Assembly (NCBI GenBank): GCA_964016885.1
Contig: OZ024764.1
Location: forward strand, 5,952,001 to 6,016,000
Source of the DNA: Eledone cirrhosa
Taxonomy: Eukaryota
Length of the DNA: 64,000 nt
Direction: 5' to 3'
A program made the position numbers and the translations under genes. Below the pieces are notes generated by a model that was not told the origin of the DNA, searched no databases, and saw nothing but the letters and a program-made list of their open reading frames with translations. Below, in pieces: positions 4,320-56,909 of the stretch; position 1 is the first letter of the stretch; the number at the start of each line of letters is the position of its first letter.

Positions 4320-4710
4320 GTTTAATGTCAATCTTTCTGCACTAGCATGGGTTAGACGTGACCATGTCTTGCTCACTCACAACTGATTCTGGCTTGGTTT
4401 CTGTGGCTGGATGCCCTTTCCTAACGCCAACCACATTTGCAGTGTGGACTGGGTCCTTTTTGTCGCGACACCTACATAACCACTTTACAGTGTGGGCTGA
4501 GTACTTTTTGTTGTGACACCTACATGACCACTTTACAGTGTGGGCTGAGTACTTTTTGTTGTGACACCATCATGACCACTTTACAGTGTGGGCTGGGTCC
4601 TTTTTGTCGTGACACCTACATGACCACTTTACAGTGTGGGGGGGTCCTTTTTGTCGTGACACCTACATGACCACTTTACAGTGTGGGCTGGGTCCTTTTT
4701 GTTGTGACAC
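4320..4710 (-). mobile_element. SINE 3' fragment running into a short 48-bp tandem array
   Basis: CTGGATGCCCTTTCCTAACGCCAACCAC followed by about 6 copies of GACACCTACATGACCACTTTACAGTGTGGGCTGGGT..TTTTTGTTGT. Confidence 0.75.
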
Positions 4711-7700
4711 CCTAACCACCAGACCACACACCAACCAGTCCAACACCCTTACCACTAGACCACACACCATCCAGTCTAACACACTAACCACTAGACCACA
4801 CACCATCCAGTCCAACACCCTTACCACTAGACCACACGCCATCCAGTCCAACACCCTTACCACTAGACCACACACCAACCAGTCCAACACCCAAACCACT
4901 AGACCACACACCATCCAGTCCAACACCCTTACCACTAGACCACACACCAACCAGTCCAACACCCTAACCACTAGACCACACACCATCCAGTCCAACTCCC
5001 TAACCACTAGACCACACACCATCCAGTCCAACACCCTAACCACTAGACCACACACCATCCAGTCCAACACCCTAACCACTAGACCACACACCATCCAGTC
5101 CAACACCCTTACCACTAGACCTCACACCAACCAGTCCAACACCCTAACCACTAGACCACACACCATCCAGTCCAACACCCTAACCACTAGACCACACACC
5201 AACCAGTCCAACACCCTAACCACTAGACCACACACCATCCAGTCCAACACCCTAACCACTAGACCACACACCATCCAGTCCAACACCCTAACCACTAGAC
5301 CACACACCATCCAGTCCAACACCCTTACCACTAGACCACACACCATCCAGTCAAACACCCTTACCACTAGACCACACACCATCCAGTCAAACACCCTTAC
5401 CACTAGACCACACACCAACCAGTCCAACACCCTAACCACTAGACTACACACCAACCAGTCCAACACCCTAACCACTAGACCACACACCAACCAGTCCAAC
5501 ACCCTAACCACACACCATCCAGTCCAACACCCTAACCACTAGACCACACACCAACCAGTCCAACACCCTTACCACTAGACCACACACCATCCACTCCAAC
5601 ACCCTTACCACTAGACCACACGCCATCCAGTCAAACACCCTTACCACTAGACCACATACCATCCAGTCCAACACCCTTACCACTAGACCACACACCATCC
5701 AGTCAAACACCCTTACCACTAGACCACACACCATCCAGTCCAACACCCTTACCACTAGACCACACACCATCCAGTCCAACACCCTAACCACTAGACCACA
5801 CACCATCCAGTCCAACACCCTTACCACTAGACCACACACCATCCAGTCCAACACCCTTACCACTAGACCACACACCATCCAGTCCAACACCCTAACCACT
5901 AGACCACACACCAACCAGTCCAACACCCTTACCACTAGACCACACACCATCCAGTCCAACACCCTAACCACTAGACCACACACCATCCAGTCCAACACCC
6001 TTACCACTAGACCACACACCATCCAGTCCAACACCCTAACCACTAGACCACACACCAACCAGTCCAACACCCTAACCACTAGACCACACACCATCCAGTC
6101 CAACACCCTAACCACTAGACCACACACCAACCAGTCCAACACCCTAACCACTAGACCACACACCATCCAGTCAAACACCCTTACCACTAGACCACACACC
6201 ATCCAGTCCAACACCCTAACCACTAGACCACACACCATCCAGTCAAACAACCTTACCACTAGACCACACACCATCCAGTCCAACACCCTAACCACTAGAC
6301 CACACACCATCCAGTCCAACACCCTTACCAATAGACCACACGCCATCCAGTCGAACACCCTTACCACTAGACCACACACCATCCACTCCAACACCCTTAC
6401 CACTAGACCACACACCAACTAGTCCAACACCCTTACCACTAGACCACATACCATCCAGTCCAACACCCTTACCACTAGACCACACACCATCCAGTCCAAC
6501 ACCTTAACCACTAGACCACACACCATCCAGTCCAACACCCTTACCACTAGACCACACACCATCCAGTCCAACACCCTAACCACTAGACCACACACCATCC
6601 AGTCCAACACCCTAACCACTAGACCACACACCATCCAGTCCAACACCCTTACCACTAGACCACACACCATCCAGTCCAACACCCTTACCACTAGACCACA
6701 CACCATCCAGTCCAACACCCTAACCACTAGACCACACACCATCCAGTCCAACACCCTAACCACTAGACCACACACCATCCAGTCCAACACCCTAACCACT
6801 AGACCACACACCATCCAGTCCAACACCCTAACCACTAGACCACACGCCATCCAGTCCAACACCCTAACCACTAGACCACACACCATCCAGTCCAACACCC
6901 TAACCACTAGACCACATACCATCCAGTCCAACACCCTTACCACTAGACCACACACCATCCAGTCCAACACCCTAACCACTAGACCACACACCATCCAGTC
7001 CAACACCCTAACCACTAGACCACACACCAACCAGTCCAACACCCTTACCACTAGACCACACACCATCCAGTCCAACACCCTTACCACTAGACCACACACC
7101 ATCCAGTCCAACACCGTAACCACTAGACCACACACCAACCAGTCCAACACCCTAACCACTAGACCACACACCATCCAGTCCAACACCCTAACCACTAGAC
7201 CACATACCATCCAGTCCAACACCCTAACCACTAGACCACACACCATCCAGTCCAACACCCTTACCACTAGACCACACACCATCCAGTCCAACACCCTAAC
7301 CACTAGACCACACACCATCCAGTCCAACACCCTAACCACTAGACCACACGCCATCCAGTCCAACACCCTTACCACTAGACCACACACCATCCAGTCCAAC
7401 ACCCTTACCACTAGACCACACACCATCCAGTCCAACACCCTTACCACTAGACCACACACCATCCAGTCCAACACCCTAACCACTAGACCACACACCATCC
7501 AGTCCAACACCCTTACCACTAGACCACACACCATCCAGTCCAACACCCTTACCACTAGACCACACACCATCCAGTCAAACACCCTTACCACTAGACCACA
7601 CACCATCCAGTCCAACACCCTTACCACTAGACCACACACCATCCAGTCCAACACCCTTACCACTAGACCACACACCATCCAGTCAAACACCCTTACCACT

Positions 7701-10700
7701 AGACCACACACCATCCAGTCCAACACCCTTACCACTAGACCACACACCATCCAGTCCAACACCCTAACCACTAGACCACACACCATCCACTCCAACACCC
7801 TAACCACTAGACCACACACCATCCAGTCCAACACCCTTACCACTAGACCACACACCATCCAGTCCAACACCCTTACCACTAGACCACACACCATCCAGTC
7901 AAACACCCTTACCACTAGACCACACACCATCCAGTCCAACACCCTTACCACTAGACCACACACCATCCAGTCCAACACCCTTACCACTAGACCACACACC
8001 ATCCAGTCCAACACCCTTACCACTAGACCACACGCCATCCAGTCCAACACCCTTACCACTAGACCACACACCATCCAGTCCAACACCCTTACCACTAGAC
8101 CACACACCATCCAGTCCAACACCCTAACCACTAGACCACACACCAACCAGTCCAACACCCTAACCACTAGACCACACACCATCCAGTCCAACACCCTAAC
8201 CACTAGACCACACACCAACCAGTCCAACACCCTAACCACTAGACCACACACCATCCAGTCCAACACCCTTACCACTAGACCACACACCATCCAGTCCAAC
8301 ACCCTAACCACTAGACCACACACCAACCAGTCCAACACCCTAACCACTAGACCACACACCATCCAGTCCAACACCCTAACCACTAGACCACACACCAACC
8401 AGTCCAACACCCTAACCACTAGACCACACACCATCCAGTCAAACACCCTTACCACTAGACCACACACCATCCAGTCCAACACCCTAACCACTAGACCACA
8501 CACCATCCAGTCAAACAACCTTACCACTAGACCACACACCATCCAGTCCAACACCCTAACCACTAGACCACACACCATCCAGTCCAACACCCTTACCACT
8601 AGACCACACGCCATCCAGTCCAACACCCTTACCACTAGACCACACACCATCCACTCCAACACCCTTACCACTAGACCACACACCAACTAGTCCAACACCC
8701 TTACCACTAGACCACATACCATCCAGTCCAACACCCTTACCACTAGACCACACACCATCCAGTCCAACACCCTAACCACTAGACCACACACCATCCAGTC
8801 CAACACCCTTACCACTAGACCACACACCATCCAGTCCAACACCCTTACCACTAGACCACACACCATCCAGTCCAACACCCTAACCACTAGACCACACACC
8901 ATCCAGTCCAACACCCTTACCACAAGACCACACACCATCCAGTCCAACACCCTTACCACTAGACCACACACCATCCAGTCCAACACCCTAACCACTAGAC
9001 CACACACCATCCAGTCCAACACCCTAACCACTAGACCACACACCATCCAGTCCAACACCCTAACCACTAGACCACACACCATCCAGTCCAACACCCTAAC
9101 CACTAGACCACACGCCATCCAGTCCAACACCCTAACCACTAGACCACACACCATCCAGTCCAACACCCTAACCACTAGACCACATACCATCCAGTCCAAC
9201 ACCCTAACCACTAGACCACACAACATCCAGTCCAACACCCTAACCACTAGACCACACACCATCCAGTCCAACACCCTAACCACTAGACCACACACCATCC
9301 AGTCCAACACCCTTACCACTAGACCACACACCATCCAGTCCAACACCCTAACCACTAGACCACACACCATCCAGTCCAACACCCTAACCACTAGACCACA
9401 CACCAACCAGTCCAACACCCTTACCACTAGACCACACACCATCCAGTCCAACACCCTTACCACTAGACCACACACCATCCAGTCCAACACCGTAACCACT
9501 AGACCACACACCAACCAGTCCAACACCCTAACCACTAGACCACACACCATCCAGTCCAACACCCTAACCACTAGACCACATACCATCCAGTCCAACACCC
9601 TAACCACTAGACCACACAACATCCAGTCCAACACCCTAACCACTAGACCACATACCATCCAGTCCAACACCCTAACCACTAGACCACACACCATCCAGTC
9701 CAACACCCTAACCACAAGACCACACACCATCCAGTCCAACACCCTTACCACTAGACCACACACCATCCAGTCCAACACCCTAACCACTAGACCACACACC
9801 ATCCAGTCCAACACCCTAATCACTAGACCACACGCCATCCAGTCCAACACCCTTACCACTAGACCACACACCATCCAGTCCAACACCCTTACCACTAGAC
9901 CACACACCATCCAGTCCAACACCCATACCACTAGACCACACACCATCCAGTCCAACACCCTTACCACTAGACCACACACCATCCAGTCCAACACCCTTAC
10001 CACTAGACCACACACCATCCAGTCCAACACCCTTACCACTAGACCACACACCATCCAGTCCAACACCCTTACCACTAGACCACACACCATCCAGTCAAAC
10101 ACCCTTACCACTAGACCACACACCATCCAGTCAAACACGCTTACCACTAGACCACACACCATCCAGTCCAACACCCTTACCACTAGACCACACACCATCC
10201 AGTCCAACACCCTTACCACTAGACCACACACCATCAAGTCCAACACCCTAACCACTAGACCATACACCATCCAGTCCAACACCCTTACCACTAGACCACA
10301 CACCATCCAGTCCAACACCCTTACCACTAGACCACACACCATCCAGTCCAACACCCTTACCACTAGACCACACACCATCCAGTCCAACACCCTAACCACT
10401 AGACCACACACCATCCAGTCCAACACCCTTACCACTAGACCACACACCATCCAGTCCAACACCCTAACCACTAGACCACACACCATCCAGTCCAACACCC
10501 TTACCACTAGACCACACACCATCCACTCCAACACACTAACCACTAGACCACACACCATCCAGTCCAACACCCTAACCACTAGACCACACACCATCCAGTC
10601 CAACACCCTTACCACTAGACCACACACCATCCAGTCCAACACCCTTACCACTAGACCACACACCATCCAGTCCAACACCCTTACCACTAGACCACACACC

Positions 10701-12298
10701 ATCCAGTCCAACACCCTAACTACTAGATCACACACCATCCAGTCCAACACCCTTACCACTAGACCACACACCATCCAGTCCAACACCCTAACCACTAGAC
10801 CACACACCATCCAGTCCAACACCCTTACCACTAGACCACACACCATCCAGTCCAACACCCTAACCACTAGACCACACACCATCCAGTCCAACACCCTAAC
10901 CACTAGACCACACACCATCCAGTCCAACACCCTTACCACTAGACCACACACCATCCAGTCCAACACCCTAACCACTAGACCACACACCATCCAGTCCAAC
11001 ACCCTTACCACTAGACCACACACCATCCAGTCCAACACCCTAACCAGTAGACCACACACCATCCAGTCCAACACCCTTACCACTAGACCACACACCATCC
11101 AGTCCAACACCCTTACCACTAGACCACACACCATCCAGTCCAACACCCTTACCACTAGACCACACACCATCCAGTCCAACACCCTAACCACTAGACCACA
11201 CACCATCCAGTCCAACACCCTAACCACTAGACCACACACCATCCAGTCCAACACCCTTACCACTAGACCACACACCATCCAGTCCAACACCCTAACCACT
11301 AGACCACACACCATCCAGTCCAACACCCTTACCACTAGACCACACACCATCCAGTCCAACACCCTAACCAGTAGACCACACACCATCCAGTCCAACACCC
11401 TTACCACTAGACCACACACCATCCAGTCCAACACCCTTACCACTAGACCACACACCATCCAGTCCAACACCCTTACCACTAGACCACACACCAACCAGTC
11501 CAACACCCTAACCACTAGACCACACACCATCCAGTCCAACACCCTAACCACTAGACCACACACCATCCAGTCCAACACCCTTACCACTAGACCACACACC
11601 ATCCAGTCCAACACCCTAACCACTAGACCACACACCATCCAGTCCAACACCCTTACCACTAGACCACACACCATCCAGTCCAACACCCTTACCACTAGAC
11701 CACACACCAACCAGTCCAACACCCTAACCACTAGACCACACACCATCCAGTCCAACACCCTTACCACTAGACCACACACCATCCAGTCCAACACCCTAAC
11801 CACTAGACCACATACCATCCAGTCCAACACCCTTACCACTAGACCACACACCATCCAGTCCAACACCCTAACCACTAGACCACACACCATCCAGTCCAAC
11901 ACACTAACCACTAGACCACACACCATCCAGTCCAACACCCTAACCACTAGACCACACACCATCCAGTCCAACACCCTAACCACTAGACCACACACCATCC
12001 AGTCCAACACCCTAACCACTAGACCACACACCAACCAGTCCAACACCCTTACCACTAGACCACACACCATCCAGTCCAACACCCTTACCACTAGACCACA
12101 CACCAACCAGTCCAACACCCTAACCACTAGACCACACACCATCCAGTCCAACACCCTAACCACTAGACCACACACCATCCAGTCCAACACCCTAACCACT
12201 AGACCACACACCATCCAGTCCAACACCCTTACCACTAGACCACACACCATCCAGTCCAACACCCTAACCACTAGACCACACACCATCCAGTCCAACAA
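4711..12298. repeat. 36-bp minisatellite, about 210 copies
   Basis: Unit ACCACTAGACCACACACCATCCAGTCCAACACCCT(A/T). Ends about 30 bp from the donor site of the 255-bp exon. Confidence 0.98.
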
Positions 12299-12900: not shown

Positions 12901-15900
12901 ATGGATGGTATGGACATGTGATGTGTATGGATGATGATTGTTGGGTGAAGATGTACCAGGAGTCCTCAGTGGGGGGAAGCTGCAGCAGAGGAAGACCAAG
13001 GAAGACCAGGGTAGAGGTGGTGTGAGCTGACCCCCAGATCACTGAAGCTCACAGTTGAGCTGACAAAGGAACAGAACAGGTGGAGGGAAGCTGCAGCAGA
13101 GGAAGACCAAGGAAGACCTGGGTAGAGGTGGCGAGAGCTGACCTCAGATCACTGAAGCTCACAGTTGAGCTGACAAAGGAACAGAACAGGTGGAGGGAAG
13201 CTACAGCAGAGGAAGACCAAGGAAGACCTGGGTAGAGGAGGTTTGAGCTGACCTCAGATCACTGAAGCTCACAGTTGAGCTGACAAAGGAACAGAACCGG
13301 TGGAGGGAAGCTGCAGTAGAGGAAGACCAAGGAAGACCAGGGTAGAGGTGGTGTGAGCTGACCCCCAGATCACTGAAGCTCACAGTTGAGCTGACAAAGG
13401 AACAGAACAGGTGGAGGGAAGCTACAGCAGAGGAAGACCAAGGAAGACCAGGGTAGAGGTGGTGTGAGCTGACCCCCAGATCACTGAAGCTCACAGTTGA
13501 GCTGACAAAGGAACAGAACAGGTGGAGGGAAGCTACAGCAGAGGAAGACCAAGGAAGACCAGGGTAGAGGTGGTGTGAGCTGACCCCCAGATCACTGAAG
13601 CTCACAGTTGAGCTGACAAAGGAACAGAACAGGTGGAGGGAAGCTGCAGCAGAGGAAGACCAAGGAAGACCTGGGTAGAGGTGGCGAGAGCTGACCTCAG
13701 ATCACTGAAGCTCACAGTTGAGCTGACAAAGGAACAGAACAGGTGGAGGGAAGCTACAGCAGAGGAAGACCAAGGAAGACCTGGGTAGAGGAGGTTTGAG
13801 CTGACCTCAGATCACTGAAGCTCACAGTTGAGCTGACAAAGGAACAGAACCGGTGGAGGGAAGCTGCAGTAGAGGAAGACCAAGGAAGACCAGGGTAGAG
13901 GTGGTGTGAGCTGACCCCCAGATCACTGAAGCTCACAGTTGAGCTGACAAAGGAACAGAACAGGTGGAGGGAAGCTGCAGCAGAGGAAGACCAAGGAAGA
14001 CCAGGGTAGAGGTGGTGTGAGCTGACCTCAGATCACCGAAGCTCACAGTTGAGCTGACAAAGGAACAGAACAGGTGGAGGGAAGCTGCAGCAGAGGAAGA
14101 CCAAGGAAGACCTGGGTAGAGGTGGTGTGAGCTGACCTCAGATCACTGAAGCTCACAGTTGAGCTGACAAAGGAACAGAACAGGTGGAGGGAAGCTGCAG
14201 CAGAGGAAGACCAAGGAAGACCTGAGTAGGGGTGGCGTGAGCTGACCTCAGATCACTGAAGCTCACAGTTGAGCTGACAAAGGAACAGAACAGGTGGAGG
14301 GAAGCTGCAGCAGAGGAAGACCAAGGAAGACCTGCGTAGAGGTGGTGTGAGCTAACCCCAGATCACTGAAGCTCACAGTTGAGCTGACAAAGGAACAGAA
14401 CAAGTGGAGGGAAGCTGCAGCAGAGGAAGACCAAGGAAGACCTGCGTAGAGGTGGTGTGAGCTGACCTCAGATCACTGAAGCTCACAGTTGAGCTGACAA
14501 AGGAACAGAACCGGTGGAGGGAAGCTGCAGTAGAGGAAGACCAAGGAAGACCTGGGTAGAGGTGGTGTGAGCTGACCTCAGATCACTGAAGCTCACAGTT
14601 GAGCTGACAAAGGAACAGAACAGGTGGAGGGAAGCTGCAGCAGAGGAAGACCAAGGAAGACCTGGGTAGAGGAGGTTTGAGCTGACCTCAGATCACTGAA
14701 GCTCACAGTTGAGCTGACAAAGGAACAGAACCGGTGGAGGGAAGCTGCAGTAGAGGAAGACCAAGGAAGACCTGGGTAGAGGTGGTGTGAGCTGACCTCA
14801 GATCACTGAAGCTCACAGTTGAGCTGACAAAGGAACAGAACAGGTGGAGGGAAGCTGCAGCAGAGGAAGACCAAGGAAGACCTGGGTAGTGGAGGTTTGA
14901 GCTGACCTCAGATCACTGAAGCTCACAGTTGAGCTGACAAAGGAACAGAACCGGTGGAGGGAAGCTGCAGTAGAGGAAGACCAAGGAAGACCTGGGTAGA
15001 GGTGGTGTGAGCTGACCTCAGATCACTGAAGCTCACAGTTGAGCTGACAAAGGAACAGAACAGGTGGAGGGAAGCTGCAGCAGAGGAAGACCAAGGAAGA
15101 CCTGGGTAGAGGAGGTTTGAGCTGACCTCAGATCACTGAAGCTCACAGTTGAGCTGACAAAGGAACAGAACCGGTGGAGGGAAGCTGCAGTAGAGGAAGA
15201 CCAAGGAAGACCTGGGTAGAGGTGGTGTGAGCTGACCTCAGATCACTAAAGCTCACAGTTGAGCTGACAAAGGAACAGAACAGGTGGAGGGAAGCTGCAG
15301 CAGAGGAAGACCAAGGAAGACCTGGGTAGAGGTGGTGTGAGCTGACCTCAGATCACTGAAGCTCACAGTTGAGCTGACAAAGGAACAGAACAGGTGAAGG
15401 GAAGCTGCAGTAGAGGAAGACCAAGGAAGACCTGGGTAGAGGTGGTGTGAGCTGACCTCAGATCACTGAAGCTCATAGTTGAGCTGACAAAGGAACAGAA
15501 CAGGTGGAGGGAAGCTGCAGCAGAGGAAGACCAAGGAAGACCTGGGTAGAGGTGGTGTGAGCTGACCTCAGATCACTGAAGCTCACAGTTGAGCTGACAA
15601 AGGAACAGAACAGGTGGAGGGAAGCTGCAGCAGAGAAAGACCAAGGAAGACCTGCGTAGAGGTGGCGAGAGCTGACCCCAGATCACTGAAGCTCACAATG
15701 GAACAGAACAGGTGGAGGGAAGCTGCAGCAGAGGAAGACCAAGGAAGACCTGGGTAGAGGTGGTGTGAGCTGACCTCAGATCACTGAAGCTCACAGTTGA
15801 GCTGACAAAGGAACAGAACAGGTGGAGGGAAGCTGCAGCAGAGGAAGACCAAGGAAGACCTGCGTAGAGGTGGTGTGAGCTGACCCCAGATCACTGAAGC

Positions 15901-17850
15901 TCACAGTTGAGCTGACAATGGAACAGGTGGAGGGAAGCTGCAGTAGAGGAAGACCAAGGAAGACCAGGGTAGCAGTGGTGTGAGCTGACCTCAGATCACT
16001 GAAGCTCACAGTTGAGCTGACAAAGGAACAGAACAGGTGGAGGGAAGCTGCAGCAGAGGAAGACCAAGGAAGACCTGCGTAGAGGTGGTGTGAGCTGACC
16101 CCATATCACTGAAGCTCACAGTTGAGCTGACAAAGGAACAGAACAGGTGGAGGGAAGCTGCAGTAGAGGAAGACCAAGGAAGACCTGGGTAGAGGTGGTG
16201 TGAGCTGACCCCAGGTCACTGAAGCCCACAGTTGAGCTGACAAAGGAACAGAACAGGTGGAGGGAAGCTGCAGTAGAGGAAGACCAAGGAAGACCTGGGT
16301 AGAGGTGGTGTGAGCTGACCCCAGATCACTGAAGCTCACAGTTGAGCTGACAAAGGAACAGAACAGGTGGAGGGAAGCTGCAGCAGAGGAAGACCAAGGA
16401 AGACCCGAGTAGAGGTGGTGTGAGCTGACCTCAGATCACTGAAGCTCACAGTTGAGCTGACAAAGGAACAGAACAGGTGGAGGGAAGCTGCAGCAGAGGA
16501 AGACCAAGGAAGACCTGCGTAGAGGTGGTGTGAGCTGACCCCAGATCACTGAAGCTCACAGTTGAGCTGACAATGGAACAGAACAGGTGGAGGGAAGCTG
16601 CAGCAGAGGAAGACCAAGGAAGACCTGGGTAGAGGTGGTGTGAGCTGACCTCAGATCACTGAAGCTCACAGTTGAGCTGACAAAGGAACAGAACAGGTGG
16701 AGGGAAGCTGCAGCAGAGGAAGACCAAGGAAGACCTGCGTAGAGGTGGTGTGAGCTGACCCCAGATCACTGAAGCTCACAGTTGAGCTGACAATGGAACA
16801 GGTGGAGGGAAGCTGCAGTAGAGGAAGACCAAGGAAGACCAGGGTAGCAGTGGTGTGAGCTGACCTCAGATCACTGAAGCTCACAGTTGAGCTGACAAAG
16901 GAACAGAACAGGTGGAGGGAAGCTGCAGCAGAGGAAGACCAAGGAAGACCTGCGTAGAGGTGGTGTGAGCTGACCCCAGATCACTGAAGCTCACAGTTGA
17001 GCTGACAATGGAACAGAACAGGTGGAGAGAAGCTGCAGTAGAGGAAGACCAAAGAAGACCTGGGTAGAGGTGGTGTGAGCTGACCTCAGATCACTGAAGC
17101 TCACAGTTGAGCTGACAAAGGAACAGAACAGGTGGAGGGAAGCTGCAGCAGAGGAAGACCAAGGAAGACCAGGGTAGAGGTGGTGTGAGCTGACCCCAGA
17201 TCACTGAAGCCCACAGTTGAGCTGACAAAGGAACAGAACAGGTGGAGGGAAGCTGCAGCAGAGGAAGACCAAGGAAGACCAGGGTAGAGGTGGTGTGAGC
17301 TGACCTCAGATCACTGAAGCTCACAGTTGAGCTGACAAAGGAACAGAACAGGAGGAGGGAAGCTGCAGTAGAGGAAGACCAGGGTAGAGATGGTGTGAGC
17401 TGACCCCAGATCACTGAAGCCCACAGTTGAGCTGACAAAGGAACAGAACAGGTGGAGGGAAGCTGCAGTAGAGGAAGACCAAGGAAGACCTGGGTAGCAG
17501 TGGCGTGAGCTGACCTCAGATCACTGAAGCTCACAGTTGAGCTGACAATGGAACAGAACAGGTGGAGGGAAGCTGCAGCAGAGAAAGACCAAGGAAGACC
17601 AGCGTAGAGGTGGTGTGAGCTGACCCCAGATCACTGAAGCTCACAGTTGAGCTGACAAAGGAACAGAACAGGTGGAGGGAAGCTGCAGTAGAGGAAGACC
17701 AAGGAAGACCAGGGTAGCAGTGGTGTGAGCTGACCTCAGATCACAGCTGAGATGACAAAGAGCTGTGACTAGTGGAGAGATTCTGTGCTGGAAAGGACCA
17801 ATCAAACCCGTGCAAACATGGAAAAATGGATGCAAAATGGCAATGAGGAT
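12900..17850 (+). repeat. 110/111-bp minisatellite (about 43 copies, 12972-17745) amplified inside the 3' end of an old RTE LINE
   Basis: Unit translates [36 protein letters not shown], matching [40 protein letters not shown]. Flanks give WYGHVMCMDDDCWVK upstream and VLERTNQTRANMEK + (GAT)n downstream. Confidence 0.92.
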
Positions 17851-18220: not shown

Positions 18221-18232
18221 ATGCTAGCTCAC

Positions 18233-18358
18233 CTGAGAATATTGTCCAAGGTAAGGAAGACCACATGTCCATCATAATTACTACCTGGATGCCAGGCAAC
18301 CTGTAGGAGTCGGATATCGGCATGGCTGACAAAAAATCTCTCGGCCAGGGGAAATGTT
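18233..18358 (-). CDS. NUP88: Nup88-like nucleoporin, internal exon (126 bp, equivalent to vertebrate exon 3)
   Basis: TTTATTTCAG acceptor, AG|GTGAGC donor, phase 2/2 matching its neighbours. Translates (R)TFPLAERFFVSHADIRLLQVAWHPGSNYDGHVVFLTLDNIL(R), versus human [38 protein letters not shown]. This frame is absent from the ORF track. Confidence 0.92.
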
Positions 18359-18417
18359 CTGAAATAAAGAGAAGTGTAAGTAAACAAGTTAAAATTAACT
18401 TTGTTTATTCATATTCA

Positions 18418-18474
18418 CTGTTATATACATTTCGGTGGTAACCATTATTCAACAGCTATGACCTCATCAGACAG
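18418..18474 (-). ncRNA. type I hammerhead ribozyme motif, sense to Nup88
   Basis: Minus: CTGT-CTGATGA-GGT(..)ACC-GAAA-TGTATA-TA-ACAG, with AATAAA about 10 nt downstream. Confidence 0.75.
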
Positions 18475-18610
18475 CTAGAACTTGAACAGAAAAAACATAA
18501 TGGAATAAAGCTTACAATTCTTTTATATATGCTCAGTGCTGAAGTATGGTGTTTTCTCAAAGCACTGGTCGCATATATAGATGTATGTGTGTGTATATAT
18601 ATATATATAT

Positions 18611-18952
18611 AAGAATTAAAATACTAGAGTGCGTTGGAGTAAGATTTTTGATGTATTGAAGGCTTCTTTGTCTATTTTTATAATTTTTCGGTTCAACGTG
18701 GGTTTGACACTTCCTTGCCATATAATCTATTTTTGTAACTGCAAACTTTTAGCTTTAGCATGCTTTTCCTTCATATCTCTCATAAGCTTTCCTAGATATG
18801 AATTCCCTATTCTTCTGAGTTTTGGGTTGTTCTGGCCGTTAATGCTTCTTATCTGTTTAATTGCCCTGATGAGTCCTTATTAATGGGACGAAACATTGTA
18901 GGCTAATAAAGATTTTTGATGTATTGAAGGCTTCTTTGTCTATTTTTATAAT
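18611..18952 (+). mobile_element. retrozyme/pLTR-like module: 44-bp direct repeats 268 bp apart enclosing an HHR, in (TA)n
   Basis: AAGATTTTTGATGTATTGAAGGCTTCTTTGTCTATTTTTATAAT at 18641-18684 and 18909-18952. Confidence 0.7.
18863..18903 (+). ncRNA. minimal type I hammerhead ribozyme
   Basis: GCC-CTGATGA-GTCCT TATTAAT GGGAC-GAAAC-ATT-GTA-GGC, then TAATAAA. The core is fully canonical, with a GUA cleavage triplet. Confidence 0.85.
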
Positions 18953-19220
18953 ATATATATATAAATGTTTGAAGTTAGAAGACCAGAACACTGCAGGTAT
19001 GGATATAGAATATAAATAAAAATGCAAAAGATATCGCTGACAATTAGTCTTTTAACTTAAATTTATTTGAATATTCAAATAAATTTATTTGGATACATAT
19101 ACACACACGAACCAATCAACCAACCAGCCGGAAAATTATAATTGAAGTGAAAACCAGGTGGTGTGTGTGTTTTTATTGGCAACATGACCCTCCCAAAGTA
19201 TAACAATATATATATATATA

Positions 19221-19615
19221 ATCATCATCATCATCATCATTTTACGTCTGCCTTTCCCTGCTTGCAAGAGTGGGGCGGGAACTGATTCTGGCTTGATTTC
19301 TACAGCTGGATGCCCTTCCTAACACCAACCTCATTTACAGTGAGTGCTGGGTGCTTTTTTGCCATGGCGCCTACACGTCCACTTTACAGTGTGGGCTGGG
19401 TGCTTTTTTGCTGTGGCACCTCCACGACCACTTTGCAGTGGAATGATAGGGACCCCAGTCCCTATCATCTCATTTCTACATTTCTACAGATGAGTAAACT
19501 GGAGCAATGTGAAATAAAATGTCTTGCTCAAGGAAACATCACCCGGTCTGAGAATTGAACTCACAACCTTTCGATTGCAAGGCCAATGCTCTAACCACTA
19601 AGCCATGTGCCTCCA
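19221..19615 (-). mobile_element. tRNA-derived SINE family B with RTE-derived 3' tail
   Basis: Reverse complement of the 30629 element, with a (CAT)n tail. Confidence 0.88.
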
Positions 19616-19993
19616 CATTATATATATATATTATACATATATGCGAGAAAAACCACAAACCCTCCATCTCAAAGGAACCAAATAAATATTCTTAAAAAGA
19701 CTCCAGTTGCATTTTCGATTTCATCTTTTTTCTTTATACTTTCACTCATGTAGGACATCTCGTTTTTTTTTTACATTTTGGAAAAATTATTCGTTTTTTC
19801 CCGTTCTTTGCCAGCGAACGTTACCACGAACCAAAGTATCGTCTTCCTGTCTTCCTTCGGTTGCAACGTTTTTTGAAATATCCAGTTCTGCGTTTACAGA
19901 TTGACTTTGTTAGTTTCAGAAGATCCCGTTAAGGGTGAAAGCAGCGATTCTTTGCTTAAACTTTAATCTGTTATTTTAATAAATATATATATA

Positions 19994-21710
19994 TCATCAT
20001 CATCATCATTTTACGTCCGCCTTTCCCTGCTTGCAAGGGTGGGACGGGTCTTATTCAGCACAGCATCTCTCCACTCGTAACGGTCCCTCGTCATCTCCAC
20101 CGTGAGCTTCAATGATCTGAGGTCTGTTCTCACCACCTCCGCCCATGTTTTTCGTGGTCTACCTCTACCACGTCTTCCTTCAACTGGCATTTCCCGGCAC
20201 TTCTTCACCCATCGGTCATCCTCCATGCGCATCACATGTCCATACCACCTCAGTCTCCTCTCCCGTACTCTACATTCTATCCCTCTCAGACACAGTTTCT
20301 CTCTCAACACATTTATGCTGGGTCGTTCACGCACATTTACACTGCACATCCAACGGAGCATGCTTGCCTCATTTCTCTCCAGCCGTCGCATATCTTCTGC
20401 GGTAGCTGCCCATGTCTCACTACCATGCAGCATCGCGCTCCTCACACAGGCATCATACAACCGGCCTTTCGTACGCAGGGAGAAACCCTTCTTCGTCAAC
20501 AGAGGAAGCAGCTCCCTAAACTTCTTCCAACCCGTCCTTATTCTAGATACTATGGCCTCGGAACACCCTCCTCCCATGCTAATCTGATCTCCTAGGTACC
20601 GGAAGCTATCCACCACTTCTATAGCGCCCTCTCGCATTTGAAAAATGTGTCTATCACTGCGACTTCTACTGTCTAATTTCCCTGTACATCTACTGCATAC
20701 ATATTTCTCCCTACCTGTTAGTTTGCCTGCTATCCCGCTACATCTCTTGTGTACCCAGGACCTACATTGTGTGCATTTTATAGAATTTATGCCAGTTCCT
20801 TTTCTGCATATCGAACATGGCCATTTCCCTGACGGAATCAGGGTTTTGTCCTCTTTTCTACTCATCAACACTTTTGTCTTAGCTAGATTTACTCTCAGTC
20901 CTCTTGCTTCCAACTGCTGTTTCCATAGCCGGAATTTATTCTCTAGCTCCTCTACTGATTCTGCCATAAGAGCCAGATCGTCAGCATAGAGAAGTTCCCA
21001 TGAACAGCCAGTCTTAAACTCCTCTGTTATGGCTTGGAGGACTATAATGAACAAGAGCGGGCTGAGGACCGAACCCTGATGTACTCCTACTTGTATCTGG
21101 AATTCCTCACTAAACTCCATTCCTACCCTGACTTTACTGAGAGTACCTCTGTACAAAGTTTGCACTGTCCTTACAAGCCATTCCTCAACACCCAGCTTCC
21201 TTAGGGACCACCAGATGACAGATCGGGGTACCCTATCAAAGGCCTTCTCTAGGTCAACAAAGGCTAAGTATAGTGGCTTATTCTTCTCTAAGAACCTCTC
21301 TTGCATTTGTCTCACCAAGAAGAGGGCATCTGTTGTACTCTTCCCAGGCACAAAACCAAACTGCATCTCATCTAGTTTGACCCTTTCTCTAATTAGTTGT
21401 GCTAAAATCCTTTCTGCCACTTTCATAACCTGATCTATCAGTTTTATACCCCTATAATTGCTCCTCTCCAAAGCATCCCCTTTACCTTTGTAGCAATTTA
21501 TGAGAATACTGCTGCACCAGTCTTTGGGTATGACACCACCATATATAGCCTGATTGATTATGCGTGCAACCAGTTTAGTGCCTACATCCCCTGATGCCTT
21601 CAGCATCTCAGCAACTATTCCCGATGGTCCGGCCGCCTTACCATTTTTCATTTCCCTAATCGCCTCTTGGACCCTATATTCGTCAATCTCAATAGCTGGT
21701 CCCTCTGTCC
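19994..21710 (-). mobile_element. 5'-truncated RTE-clade LINE; RT and C-terminal ORF uninterrupted
   Basis: RT motifs QFGF, FVDLEKAFDRV, GVHQGSVLSPLLF and LLYADD, a PHD-like Cys/His cluster, RLRWYGHVMR, and an (ATG)n tail. No endonuclease domain. Confidence 0.95.
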
Positions 21711-21731
21711 CGCTATATATATATATATGTG

Positions 21732-21860
21732 TGTCCAGAAATAGCCGTCGAAACTGCTTGAGCTCTGCCGTCGGGGTCATACTTTCTCCTATTACCCACT
21801 CTACTACCCTAAGTATTGAGTACTCTGGTGCTTTATGGTCCATCTGGTTCCTTACCACAA
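21732..21860 (+). mobile_element. Penelope-like terminal fragment (3' half of the 1801-type HHR)
   Basis: GTCCAGAAATAGCCGTCGAAAC..GAGCTCTGCCGTCGGGGTC..GGTTCCTTACCACA, flanked by TA. Confidence 0.7.
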
Positions 21861-21994
21861 CTGCTCCGCTATATATATCTATATCTATATATATATAGGC
21901 ATGAGTGATGACTCTAGTTGTTATTTATAACAATTGACTATTACAGTTATTTTCTGCTTTTGGAGTTCTCACATTTTCCCACAGACATACATTG

Positions 21995-22110
21995 TGAAGG
22001 CGTGTGGCTGAATGGAAAGAGAATTGGATTCGCAATCGTGAGGTTGTGAGTTTGATTCCCAGACCAGGCATGTGTTATGTCCCAGGGCAAGACATTTATT
22101 TCACGTTGCT
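21995..22110 (+). mobile_element. tRNA-SINE head fragment
   Basis: TGAAGGCGTGTGGCTGAATGG..GAGTTTGATTCC..GGGCAAGACATTTATTTCACGTTGCTC. Confidence 0.7.
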
Positions 22111-22389
22111 CTTTCTACCTGTTTGTTCGTCTGATTTGACGGTGGTGGTGGTAGTGTGGTAATGGTGGTGCGATGGTGAGGTAGTGTTGTATGTAGTGTT
22201 GTGGTGGTGTGGTAGTGTGGTAGGTGTGGTAGTGGTAGTAGGTGTGGTTGTGGTGGTGTGGTAGTAGAGGTGGGTGTGTGGGGTTGGTGGGGGTTGGTGG
22301 TGGTGGTGTGGTAGTGGTGGTAGGTGTGGTAGTGGTAGCAGGTGTGGTTGTGGTGGTGGTGTGGTAGTGGTGATAATGGTTGTGGTGAT

Positions 22390-22810
22390 GAGACAGTACC
22401 CCATGTGAGTGAGTGTAAGTAAAATGAGAGTTTTCTGTGTGAATGAAGGTAAAACAAGACATGCCCTTTGAGTGTGGGTAAACTGAGACAGTACTCAGTG
22501 TGAGTGTAGGTAAAATGAGACAGTCCTGTGTGAGTGTAGTTATAGGTAAAATGAGACAGTACCCTGTGTGAGTGTAGGTAAAATGAGACAGTACCCTGTG
22601 AGTGAAGGTAAAATGAGACAGTACCCTGTGTGAGTGAAGGTAAAATGAGACAGTACTGTGAGTGAAGGTAAAATGAGACAGTACCCTGTGAGTGAAGGTA
22701 AAATGAGACAGTACCTTGTGAGTGAAGGTAGAATGAGACAGTACGCTGTGAGTGAAGGTAAAATGAGACAGTACCCTGTGAGTGAAGGTAAAATGAGAGT
22801 CCCCTGTGAG
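22390..22810. repeat. about 30-bp minisatellite next to the exon donor
   Basis: Unit GAGACAGTACCCTGTGAGTGAAGGTAAAAT. Confidence 0.9.
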
Positions 22811-22824
22811 AGGGTGCTACCTAC

Positions 22825-22994
22825 CTAGCCTCTATGTTGTGTTTACCACCTCCATGCATGTCATTCTTGCCATACTGTTGTGGCATCTGCATGACAGATA
22901 TTCCCACTTGACCCCATACTGCCAAATATTGACCTGTCTTGTTAAACAGGATCTGTTCCACAGTGAACCCCACATCTGAACTAGGGATCAGCAC
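22825..22994 (-). CDS. NUP88: Nup88-like nucleoporin, internal exon (170 bp, equivalent to vertebrate exon 2)
   Basis: Polypyrimidine tract + CAG acceptor, AG|GTAGGT donor. Translates VLIPSSDVGFTVEQILFNKTGQYLAVWGQVGISVMQMPQQYGKNDMHGGGKHNIEA(R), resembling human NUP88 [42 protein letters not shown] (recalled, not searched). Ends in phase 2. Confidence 0.9.
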
Positions 22995-23364: not shown

Positions 23365-23951
23365 ATCATCATCATCATCATTTTACGTCCGCTTTTCCCT
23401 GCTTGCAAGGGTGGGACGGGTCTTATTCAGCACAGCATCTCTCCACCGTGAGCTTCAATGATCTGAGGTCTGTTCTCACCACCTCCGCCCATGTTTTTCG
23501 TGGTCTACCTCTACCACGTCTTCCTTCAACTGGCATTTCCTGGCACTTCTTCACCCATCGGTCATCCTCCATGCGCATCACATGTCCATACCACCTCAGT
23601 CTCCTCTCCCGTACACTACATTCTATCCCTCTCAGACACAGTTTCTCTCTCAACACATTTATGCTGGGTCGTTCACGCACATTTACACTGCACATCCAAC
23701 GGAGCATGCTTGCCTCATTTCTCTCCAGCTGTCGCATATCTTCTGCGGTAGCTGCCCATGTCTCACTACCATGCAGCATCGCGCTCCTCACACAGGCATC
23801 ATACAACCGGCCTTTCGTACGCAGGGGGAAACCCTTCTTCGTCAACAGAGGAAGCAGCTCCCTAAACTTCTTCCAACCCGTCCTTATTCTAGATACTATG
23901 GCCTCGGAACACCCTCCTCCCATGCTAATCTGATCTCCTAGGTACCGGAAG

Positions 23952-24107: not shown

Positions 24108-24421
24108 ATAATATAAGATCAAAAGATGGTTAAAGGAGTTCCATGTATTTTATTATGCGCATTTCAAAAACAAACATCATCATGCAATAATATTTGTGTT
24201 TTCATCAGATAAAACAGGAGAACATGATATGAAGGCTAAAAAACACTTGTGGATAGTGCATATGGTGATTTAAAACTGCACTATCCACAAGTGTTTTTTA
24301 GCCTTCATATCATGTTCTCCTGTTTTATCTGATGAAAACACAAATATTATTGCATGATGATGTTTGTTTTTGAAATGTGCATAATAAAATACATGGAACT
24401 CCTTTAACCATCTTTTGATCT

Positions 24422-26170: not shown

Positions 26171-26206
26171 TCTTCTGATGAAGGACTAGCGTCCGAAACG
26201 TTAAGA
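26171..26206 (+). ncRNA. minimal hammerhead ribozyme (loopless palindromic stem III) in a pLTR-like fragment, about 26125-26290
   Basis: TCTT-CTGATGA-AGGAC TAGC GTCC-GAAAC-GTT-AAGA, flanked by (TA)n on both sides. Confidence 0.8.
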
Positions 26207-32466: not shown

Positions 32467-32833
32467 AAATAAAGTTAAATAAAAGTCAAATGATTAAAAT
32501 TTAGCTTCGTTTATTACTGCTATATATATTTCAGTGACAGCCATCTTTGGCTGTGACCTCTTCAGGCAGTTTGAATTAGTGTGGTACAGACAAGTACATA
32601 TGTTGTTTAGGTGTATAATATTGTCAATACTCTGATATGCCCAGTTCCTGGTTGGGTTGTTATTTCACTGGGGAACTGGAGTCATACACCTAAACAACAT
32701 ATGTACTTGTCTATACCATACTAATTCAAACTGCCTGAAGAGGTCACAGCCAAAGATGGCTGTCACTGAAATATATATAGCAGTAATAAACGAAGCTAAA
32801 TTTTAATCATTTGACTTTTATTTAACTTTATTT
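32467..32833. mobile_element. fold-back Penelope-like module: about 150-bp arms, HHR on each strand (minus 32516-32570, plus 32730-32784)
   Basis: ACTGC-CTGAAGA-GGTCACAGCCA AAGA TGGCTGTCACT-GAAA-TATATA-TA-GCAGT, then AATAAA. Confidence 0.85.
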
Positions 32834-55859: not shown

Positions 55860-56165
55860 TACAATATATTAACAAATGGAAACTATATTTATAAAACCAT
55901 ATTTATTTCATTATACATATTTCAAGGACACCAAAGCAAATTATGGTGCGCTTTCATCAGATAAAAAATAATATATCCAGGATTTTCCAACCGACATGTT
56001 GTCATGACATACTTTAAGGGTATGTCAATATTTGTTTATAAAACTGATCTATATTATATTTTATCTGATGAAAGCGCACCATAATTTGCTTTGGTGTCCT
56101 TGAAATATGTATAATGAAATAAATATGGTTTTATAAATATAGTTTCCATTTTTTAATATATTGTA
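55860..56165. mobile_element. fold-back Penelope-like module, HHR on each strand (minus 55906-55966, plus 56059-56119)
   Basis: TTTTAT-CTGATGA-AAGCGCACCA..TGGTGTCCTT-GAAA-TATGTA-TA-ATGAAATAAA, about 110-bp arms. Confidence 0.82.
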
Positions 56166-56557: not shown

Positions 56558-56909
56558 AAAATGAAAATCTGAAGGCAAGGTAAAATTCCAATCATTTTAA
56601 TCACGACACATGTTTCAATAAGAGATAGATCTATTGTGAAGCCATGATCGATTATCACTGATCTCATCAGGTGAAAATGAATTGTCTTCAAATTCTTGAT
56701 ATGAGGGAGACAAAATAACGATGTTCTCTCACAGAATTCATTCCCTCATATTTTATCTCCCTGTTCTCAAGAATTTGAAGACAATGCATTTTCACCTGAT
56801 GAGATCAGTGATAATTGATCATGGCTTCACAATTGATCTATCTCTTATTGAAACATGTGTCGTGATTAAAATGATTGGAATTTTACCTTGCCTTCGGATT
56901 TTCATTTTT
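56558..56909. mobile_element. fold-back Penelope-like module, HHR on each strand (minus 56601-56674, plus 56792-56865)
   Basis: TCAC-CTGATGA-GAT(long stem II)ATT-GAAAC-ATGT-GTC-GTGA, with palindromic ACATGT and a GUC site. Arms about 140-160 bp. Confidence 0.82.

What the first reader, a model, noticed from the sequence alone, without database searches (positions are those of the whole stretch)
18418..18474. Sense-strand hammerhead about 63 nt upstream of a Nup88 exon acceptor
On the Nup88 transcript strand, an intact-core HHR (CUGAUGA/GAAA/AUA, stem I CUGU:ACAG) would cut between 18422 and 18421. That is about 63 nt before the exon starting at 18358, probably just upstream of the branch region, and an AATAAA follows. 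Inference: if active, it severs the intron of an essential gene co-transcriptionally, so splicing must tolerate the cut or the ribozyme is normally inactive as a monomer. It is a candidate for domestication.
Basis: partly seen in the sequence, partly recalled or inferred. Interest (0 to 1): 0.75.

Follow-up and report, generated by a model that had tools for sequence, protein, structure and literature searches.

The report
Jumping-gene hammerhead beside Nup88 exon
The self-cutting RNA motif just upstream of a Nup88 exon is one of hundreds of similar copies left in this genome by a Penelope-like jumping gene; it is likely inactive on its own, and the leftover's tail likely now supplies the exon's splice signals.

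Summary
The motif is real: a type I hammerhead (18474-18418, minus strand) whose predicted cut lies 63 nt before a Nup88 exon. It is not special to Nup88. It sits in a ~215-bp, 5'-truncated end repeat (pLTR) of a Penelope-like retrotransposon with Hydra-clade motifs. One 21-mer of it has 477 exact genomic copies, and the window holds 14 hammerhead motifs. The AATAAA belongs to the repeat. Helix III is the short palindromic type that needs a dimer. No same-subfamily partner was found in 114 kb, and the predicted monomer active fold is about 0.03%. This copy has decayed like its siblings (ribozyme versus flank p=0.73; low power). A transcript-like contig identical over 189 nt joins this exon to both neighbours. 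One real twist: the repeat ends 5-8 nt before the AG, so the likely branch point and pyrimidine tract are repeat-derived. A related species (exon 90% identical) has the same tail there, so the insertion is probably old; its ribozyme could not be seen. Cleavage was not tested. The scan holds no note on this sequence, but has a similar Penelope-beside-acceptor case in another genome. Verdict: ordinary remnant; domestication unsupported.

The parts
18418..18474 (-). Type I hammerhead motif of dimer type (4-bp helix I, long helix II with internal loop, 2-bp helix III with palindromic loop); predicted cut 18422/18421
   Evidence: Sequence and fold
18364..18580 (-). 5'-truncated pLTR fragment of a Penelope-like element with Hydra-clade motifs; contains the hammerhead, the AATAAA and the tail
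   Evidence: Boundaries from 29 copies; 86% over 125 nt to the pLTR behind an RT-EN element in L067
18423..18430 (-). Self-complementary helix III strand for dimer formation; 18428 is a private A-to-G change
   Evidence: 0 of 29 and 0 of 30 copies share the G; homodimer duplex -3.2 kcal/mol with or without it
18434..18463 (-). Helix II; the near-private change at 18438 breaks an A-U pair
   Evidence: -6.2 versus -7.9 kcal/mol for L007 and L059; shared by 1 of 29 and 0 of 30 copies
18404..18409 (-). AATAAA, carried by the repeat
   Evidence: Present in 20 of 29 and 20 of 30 other copies
18361..18393 (-). Repeat tail that likely serves as branch point (candidate A at 18389, -31; alternative A at 18377, -19) and pyrimidine tract of the Nup88 acceptor
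   Evidence: Aligned to the family down to ~18364; branch-like motifs; tail also at the matching intron of organism B. Branch use is inferred, not shown
18581..18611 (.). (CA)n/(TA)n microsatellite at the element's 5' junction, the usual target of this group
   Evidence: most copies border (TA)n
18233..18358 (-). Nup88 exon (126 nt)
   Evidence: Pfam PF10168; X1 contig with 0 differences over 18232-18360
18359..22824 (-). Nup88 intron, 4466 nt, GT...AG, that holds the element
   Evidence: X1 loose end continues into the exon ending at 22825
22825..22994 (-). Upstream Nup88 exon (its 5' boundary read from the sequence)
18862..18904 (+). Second, unrelated hammerhead motif on the antisense strand, from another repeat fragment
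   Evidence: weak Rfam Hammerhead_3 match at 18841-18897, E=0.61

Best explanation
This is a lone, truncated end repeat of a Penelope-like retrotransposon that sits 5-8 nt before a Nup88 splice acceptor; its hammerhead is predicted to be nearly silent because it needs a second copy to fold, so the intron is likely spliced uncut, with the repeat's tail likely acting as branch point and pyrimidine tract. Shown: family membership, the link to an RT-endonuclease ORF, the boundaries, typical decay, and a contig with the intron removed. Inferred: (1) in a full element two tandem hammerheads pair through the palindromic helix III and cut the element RNA out of its precursor; (2) this solo copy lacks a partner and rarely cuts; (3) the insertion went into a TA just upstream of the AG and displaced the older splice signals, which would explain why the tail is kept while the ribozyme drifts.
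For: Repeat: 2126 first-look candidates, 40 scored, the 39 other main matches 80-93% identical; 477 exact 21-mer matches, control 0. Link to the element: in L067 the same hammerhead subfamily lies 1.15 kb behind a decayed RT plus endonuclease ORF, with an inverted partial pLTR in front and (TA)n flanks. 23 of 30 loci carrying that endonuclease (query locus included) have this hammerhead family about 1.0-1.4 kb downstream on the same strand. The 847-aa ORF of L098 has DKT, YRDD, CxCx5C, CxxC and CxH motifs, as described for the Hydra clade (PMC8557442, section 11). Monomer: active-fold share 2.6e-4, like four sibling copies (1.1-3.3e-4); helix III pair probability 0.002-0.004 in context. Single PLE min-hammerheads showed no cleavage in vitro, dimers little (PMC4209133). 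No partner: only the self-hit in G000:C25:5902001-6016000. Neutral decay: 3 of 32 differences in the 3' half against a median of 3.5 in 30 copies; rare alleles 2 of 57 in the ribozyme and 8 of 147 in the flanks, p=0.73; chance of an untouched 13-nt core 0.52. Splicing: X1 contig joins the exon to both neighbours, identical over 129+30+30 nt. Two more sense-strand hammerhead motifs of another family lie in other Nup88 introns, and two antisense ones.
Against: No cleavage data and no raw RNA reads were available, so inactivity is only predicted; ViennaRNA ignores tertiary contacts and proteins. The selection test is weak (57 nt, 10 changes). The core is intact, helix I forms with probability 0.10-0.29 in context, and the private helix III change costs nothing in the predicted dimer. 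The 24 nt 5' of the core are closer to the family majority than in most copies (1 difference; 3 of 30 as low). The insertion seems old, which leaves room for selection. No DNA contig of organism A covered the exon-element junction, so the insertion in X1's organism is inferred, and X1's library type is not on record. A spliced contig cannot exclude partial cleavage. Pfam and PDB gave no hit for the linked ORFs; the RT and GIY-YIG labels rest on motifs and on homologues. The first Nup88 exon was not found, so the full pre-mRNA was not scanned with certainty.
Confidence: 0.85

Rival explanations
1. Domesticated intronic ribozyme: the hammerhead cuts a share of Nup88 pre-mRNA just upstream of the branch point, helped by proteins or by pairing in trans with other family RNAs, and so tunes Nup88 output in the way described for the CPEB3 ribozyme.
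For: Sense orientation, intact core, cut site 32 nt upstream of the candidate branch A. The tail is shared with organism B. Family sequence occurs in many X1 contigs, so trans partners may exist. Precedents: conserved amniote intronic hammerheads (PMC6155905, passages) and CPEB3 (PMC10919898, abstract and passages).
Against: No excess conservation of the ribozyme. One near-private change weakens helix II. Minimal PLE architecture, for which even dimers cut poorly (PMC4209133; PMC6765202). Organism B's contig was not listed as aligning beyond 18366 at 80% likeness, a weak hint that the ribozyme part has diverged there.
Confidence: 0.07
2. Wholly neutral passenger: the tail is not used for splicing either, and the branch point lies elsewhere or the acceptor needs little more than the last few native bases.
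For: Branch use is only inferred from motifs. The tail's U-richness and TTTAAC are family traits (24 of 29 and 11 of 30 copies). The pyrimidine excess over siblings is one base.
Against: Everything from -6/-8 to about -220 is repeat sequence, so any branch point in the usual -18 to -40 zone (general knowledge) must be repeat-derived. The next Nup88 acceptor has TTAAC at a similar distance. TTTAAC is kept in organism B.
Confidence: 0.06
3. Chance look-alike with no ribozyme ancestry.
For: No Rfam match.
Against: 14 motifs against 0.1 in shuffles, hundreds of homologues, a compensatory stem I change and a fixed position behind the PLE endonuclease.
Confidence: 0.01

Closest known systems
PLE-associated minimal type I hammerheads with small palindromic helix III (Cervera and de la Pena 2014, PMC4209133; read parts 1-2 of 4: abstract, results, discussion, start of methods; supplements not opened)
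   Same: Type I; short helix I (4 bp), long helix II, G10.1-C11.1, palindromic helix III; lies in the pLTR; most copies are dispersed single motifs, some are inverted pairs 100-700 bp apart (seen).
   Different: No bulged base between positions 9 and 10.1 in the fold obtained here. Helix II is longer (up to 12 bp with an internal mismatch). This copy abuts a host splice acceptor.
Hydra clade of C-terminal EN+ Penelope-like elements (Craig et al. 2021, PMC8557442; read section 11 and passages; supplements not opened)
   Same: Linked ORF has DKT, a CxCx5C linker, no CCHH between the GIY- and YIG-like motifs, CxxC and CxH around the E and N, a C-terminal endonuclease, (TA)n insertion and canonical hammerheads.
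   Different: RWR instead of RWK in L098 (RWK in 71 of 120 homologues). The elements are longer than the <3 kb described (about 2.5 kb ORF plus about 1.1 kb 3' region). No tree with named Hydra sequences was built.
Domesticated intronic ribozymes: amniote RECK/CTCL/DTNB hammerheads (PMC6155905, passages) and the CPEB3 HDV-like ribozyme (PMC10919898, abstract and passages)
   Same: Sense-strand ribozyme motif in an intron of a host gene, of retroelement origin.
   Different: Those are conserved across deep lineages (RECK in all birds and mammals), and CPEB3 has a measured 2-3 min half-life. This one is among hundreds of equally intact copies, shows no excess conservation and has a dimer-type helix III.
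Non-LTR retrozymes (bioRxiv 10.64898/2026.07.22.740005; read part 1 of 5 and passages)
   Same: Type I hammerhead related to PLE pLTRs; solo monomers are common, and 42-44% of Xenopus copies overlap introns.
   Different: No tandem array here; the copy is a solo pLTR fragment.

Membership tests
Type I hammerhead ribozyme | CUGANGA, GAAA and NUH core in type I order, closed by helix I | tested here: met
Type I hammerhead ribozyme | Helix II closed by G10.1-C11.1 | tested here: met
   -6.2 kcal/mol hairpin
Type I hammerhead ribozyme | Stable helix III as a monomer (canonical, monomer-active type) | tested here: not met
   2 bp; pair probability 0.002-0.004
Type I hammerhead ribozyme | Self-cleavage at NUH | not testable with these tools
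   Needs an assay; one search offered no raw RNA reads
PLE dimer-type minimal hammerhead | Palindromic helix III/loop 3 | tested here: met
   8-nt self-complementary strand, -3.2 kcal/mol duplex
PLE dimer-type minimal hammerhead | Located in the pLTR of an RT plus GIY-YIG element | tested here: met
   L067; 23 of 30 endonuclease loci
PLE dimer-type minimal hammerhead | Second same-strand copy nearby for the active dimer | tested here: not met
   Only the self-hit in 114 kb. A sister-subfamily motif at 32569-32517 would leave a C-A mismatch beside the Nup88-proximal cut and has its own inverted partner
Penelope-like element (EN+) | [quoted passage not shown] | tested here: inconclusive
   Motifs YRDD and Y..YIG present; 429 homologues, one with a GIY-YIG hit above the cut-off and one with a sub-cut-off RVT_1 hit among 5 rescanned. 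No direct Pfam or PDB hit
Penelope-like element (EN+) | 5' truncation, inverted partial pLTR, microsatellite target | tested here: met
   L067, L100, (TA)n borders, inverted pairs
Hydra clade PLE | DKT, CxCx5C linker, no CCHH, CxxC and CxH in the endonuclease | tested here: met
   against PMC8557442 section 11
Hydra clade PLE | N-terminal RWK motif | tested here: inconclusive
   RWR just before the L098 ORF in another frame; RWK in 71 of 120 homologues
Hydra clade PLE | Placement in the Hydra clade in an RT tree | not tested
   No named Hydra sequences were at hand
Domesticated intronic ribozyme (RECK/CPEB3 type) | Conservation above neutral rate at the orthologous intron | tested here: inconclusive
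   Within the genome no excess (p=0.73; low power). Tail shared with organism B, ribozyme part not visible
Domesticated intronic ribozyme (RECK/CPEB3 type) | Single or rare locus rather than one of many equivalent repeat copies | tested here: not met
   477 exact 21-mer copies; 23 of 30 sampled copies keep the core
Domesticated intronic ribozyme (RECK/CPEB3 type) | Effect of cleavage on host mRNA | not testable with these tools
   Needs a minigene or antisense block

The most novel reading that the evidence does not exclude
An old Penelope-like insertion became a required part of the Nup88 acceptor, with its tail as branch point and pyrimidine tract. The hammerhead 32 nt upstream of that branch point is kept as a conditional cutter that is switched on in trans by pairing with RNAs from the hundreds of sibling copies, so retrotransposon expression would tune an essential nucleoporin.
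Probability: 0.05. Interest if true: 0.75.

Novelty: new member of a known kind. Interest (0 to 1): 0.2.

Why it matters
As it stands it matters little: dispersed dimer-type hammerheads from Penelope-like elements are well described, and this window alone holds 14 hammerhead motifs. Two modest points remain. It is a likely case of a Penelope-like end repeat supplying the 3' splice signals of a conserved host exon; I found no paper on that for this group in searches, though transposon-derived splice signals in general are known (search listing). It also indicates that elements with Hydra-clade motifs are abundant in this genome. If cleavage in trans were shown, it would be a new way for retrotransposon RNA to regulate a host gene, and would bear on the open question of what minimal PLE hammerheads do in vivo.

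Tried and rejected
Rfam gave no gathering-level match in the window and no match to this motif at E<=10; this says nothing against the motif. My first reading, that organism B lacks the insertion because its contig stops aligning at 18366, was rejected when one search showed that the next 30 letters resemble the family tail. The RT plus GIY-YIG element in L031 (Pfam RVT_1 and GIY-YIG) was first considered the parent; its endonuclease shows no significant match to L067 and no link to this hammerhead subfamily was found, so it was dropped. The idea that the private change at 18428 weakens the dimer was rejected: -3.2 kcal/mol either way (the two values at the end were off by one base and are void). 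A Neptune assignment was dropped because the linker is CxCx5C and CCHH is absent. Pfam and PDB found nothing for the L067, L098 and L099 ORFs; the Atlas gave no answer. The first Nup88 exon(s) were not found by an ORF listing. A metagenome scan for the exon-intron junction found 0 matches. Runs X2, X3, X4 and X8 held no contig across the junction; these holes prove nothing. Two primary papers (PMC5785218, PMC2933863) are not held; they are cited only through reviews. Searches for hammerhead plus octopus and Penelope, Neptune, octopus gave no paper on this locus.

Full report
Observation. The minus strand carries a complete type I hammerhead at 18474-18418: CUGU, CUGAUGA, a 30-nt helix II, GAAA, a short helix III region, the AUA triplet and ACAG. 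The exon at 18358-18233 is Nup88 (Pfam E=3.3e-9), with five more Nup88 matches on the same strand. The motif is not chance: 14 such motifs in the window against a mean of 0.1 in 100 shuffles. Rfam does not report it.

It is a repeat copy. A search of the genome with 18380-18560 gave 2126 first-look candidates, of which 40 were scored; the 39 other main matches are 80-93% identical. An exact 21-mer from the ribozyme occurs 477 times, the control pattern 0 times. Alignment with the 29 fetched copies puts the shared unit at about 18580 to 18364, bordered by (TA)n or (CA)n. Many copies stop at the same 3' point as this one; others run about 110 nt further. The AATAAA is in 20 of 29 and 20 of 30 other copies. 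Of 30 loci chosen only by the 21-mer (the first 30 of 477; 28 sites, two being inverted pairs), 23 keep GAAA and the cleavage triplet and 16 also keep a full stem I, so an intact core is the normal state.

Parent element. Two of those 30 loci share about 1.4 kb upstream of the hammerhead. The longer one (L067) is a decayed element with RT motifs, a cysteine linker and an endonuclease-like end 1.15 kb before the hammerhead, an inverted partial end repeat in front, and (TA)n flanks; it matches the Nup88 copy at 86% over 125 nt. Searching the genome with that endonuclease gave 55,922 first-look candidates, 150 scored (not a copy number). In 23 of the 30 fetched loci, the query locus included, this hammerhead family lies about 1.0-1.4 kb downstream on the same strand, mostly as sister subfamilies (20 by motif, 3 more by BLAST). 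An 847-aa copy (L098) has DKT, YRDD, CxCx5C, CxxC and CxH, and lacks CCHH, the set described for the Hydra clade of Penelope-like elements (PMC8557442, section 11). Pfam and PDB do not hit these ORFs directly. Among 429 homologues, of 5 rescanned one has a GIY-YIG hit above the cut-off and one a weak RVT_1 hit, and a profile of the best 60 matches all four L067 pieces. No tree was built, so 'Hydra' rests on motifs.

Likely activity. Helix III is 2 bp with a self-complementary loop. PLE hammerheads of this build are reported to need dimers and to cut poorly even then; a single S. mansoni motif showed no cleavage (PMC4209133; PMC6765202 passages). ViennaRNA gives the monomer active fold a share of 2.6e-4, like four siblings, and helix III pair probabilities of 0.002-0.004 in context, although helix I forms at 0.10-0.29. 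In 114 kb around the site BLAST finds no second copy of this subfamily. The sister motif at 32569-32517 is on the same strand, but by my reading of the dimer model it would leave a C-A mismatch beside the Nup88-proximal cut, it has its own inverted partner 160 nt away, and it may lie outside the gene (first exon not found). These are predictions; cleavage was not measured.

Selection. The copy has 3 differences in the 32-nt 3' half of the ribozyme (median 3.5 in 30 copies) and 4 in 46 nt of tail (median 4); the 24 nt 5' of the core have only 1 (3 of 30 as low). Rare alleles are 2 of 57 inside the ribozyme and 8 of 147 outside (p=0.73), and at that rate an untouched core has probability 0.52 (comparison set chosen by likeness to this copy). 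The change at 18438 weakens helix II by 1.7 kcal/mol; the change at 18428 is neutral for the predicted dimer. Other Nup88 introns hold two more sense-strand and two antisense hammerhead motifs. There is no sign of selection on the ribozyme, but power is low.

Splicing and a related species. Of 24 runs listed, 6 were laid. A 2678-nt contig of X1 (organism A; library not on record) covers the exon with 0 differences, and its 30-letter loose ends match the neighbouring exons exactly, so the 4466-nt intron (22824-18359) is removed in that transcript-like contig. No organism A DNA contig crossed the junction, so the insertion there is inferred. A 340-nt contig of X5 (organism B) has 12 listed differences in the exon (14 over the 141 aligned letters; 2 of 41 residues) and shares the last 8 intron bases. 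Its next 30 letters begin with a stretch that matches the family tail at 15 of 16 positions, and the window's own copy at 13 of 16 (by eye). The insertion therefore probably predates the split of the two species. Only 30 of B's 154 loose letters were shown, so its ribozyme could not be judged; one search lists no second aligned piece or joint for that contig at 80% likeness, which is a weak hint of divergence because the tables are cut.

The twist. The repeat ends 5-8 nt before the AG. The branch-like TTAAC (A at -31), the alternative CTTAC (A at -19) and most of the pyrimidine tract are therefore repeat-derived; the next Nup88 acceptor has TTAAC at a similar distance. B keeps TTTAAC, lacks the CTTAC and has a long U run. 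The window's tail has 19 pyrimidines in 24 nt, more than any of 59 other copies, whose maximum is 18; the margin is one base and the comparison is sensitive to a 1-nt deletion. I infer that the tail, not the ribozyme, is what the host now needs. Branch use was not shown.

Comparison and verdict. It works like, and by position and build is, a PLE dimer-type hammerhead. It fails the tests for a monomer-active hammerhead and for a rare domesticated locus such as RECK or CPEB3 (PMC6155905 passages; PMC10919898 abstract and passages; PMC7761336 passages). Intronic copies of related elements are common in frogs, though under-represented (bioRxiv 10.64898/2026.07.22.740005; its supplements were not seen, nor were those of the other papers, and Hydra sequence files in PMC8557442 could bear on the clade label). 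The scan's notes hold nothing near this place or like this sequence; 317 notes in this genome mention hammerheads, the 8 shown being a different, scrambled type; one note describes a similar Penelope copy beside an acceptor in another genome. Novelty: new member of a known kind. Interest 0.2.

Noticed in passing
window 24150-24387, 32517-32783, 55908-56117, 56601-56865: Four inverted pairs of type I hammerhead motifs from four sequence groups, the typical inverted-pLTR layout; the 32.5 kb pair is a sister subfamily of the Nup88 copy.
   Followed up: partly
window 1576-1541 (-), 25320-25285 (-), 26171-26206 (+); G000:C25:5939880-5939845 (-): 36-nt minimal hammerheads of another family; two lie in sense orientation inside Nup88 introns.
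   Followed up: partly
window 18641-19072: A second hammerhead on the + strand (18862-18904) between two exact 44-bp direct repeats 268 bp apart, followed by (TA)n and a segment (18960-19072) similar to the terminal region of the RT plus GIY-YIG element in L027/L031.
   Followed up: partly
window 18476-18475 (-): An AG after a pyrimidine run directly precedes helix I (27 of 29 and 17 of 30 copies). This recalls the intron end at helix I of D. virilis Penelope (PMC4209133) and could be a cryptic acceptor that would add 116 nt to the exon; no such joint was seen in X1.
   Followed up: partly
L031:2962-4443 (G000:C2): Penelope-like ORF with Pfam RVT_1 and GIY-YIG hits, interrupted by one stop, with an inverted terminal repeat.
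   Followed up: partly
L098:1536-4076, L099:1976-4087: Long ORFs (847 and 704 aa) with Hydra-clade motifs that get no Pfam hit in the library copy used; the family gave 55,922 first-look candidates, so it may be a major component of this genome.
   Followed up: partly
window ~20030-21700 and ~23400-23950 (-): A long LINE-like RT coding stretch inside the same intron and a near-duplicate of its 3' part in the next intron upstream (read; family label is by eye, not tested).
   Followed up: no
window 4707-12297 and 12969-17744: Very homogeneous tandem arrays inside Nup88 introns: 36-bp unit x211 and 110-bp unit x44.
   Followed up: no
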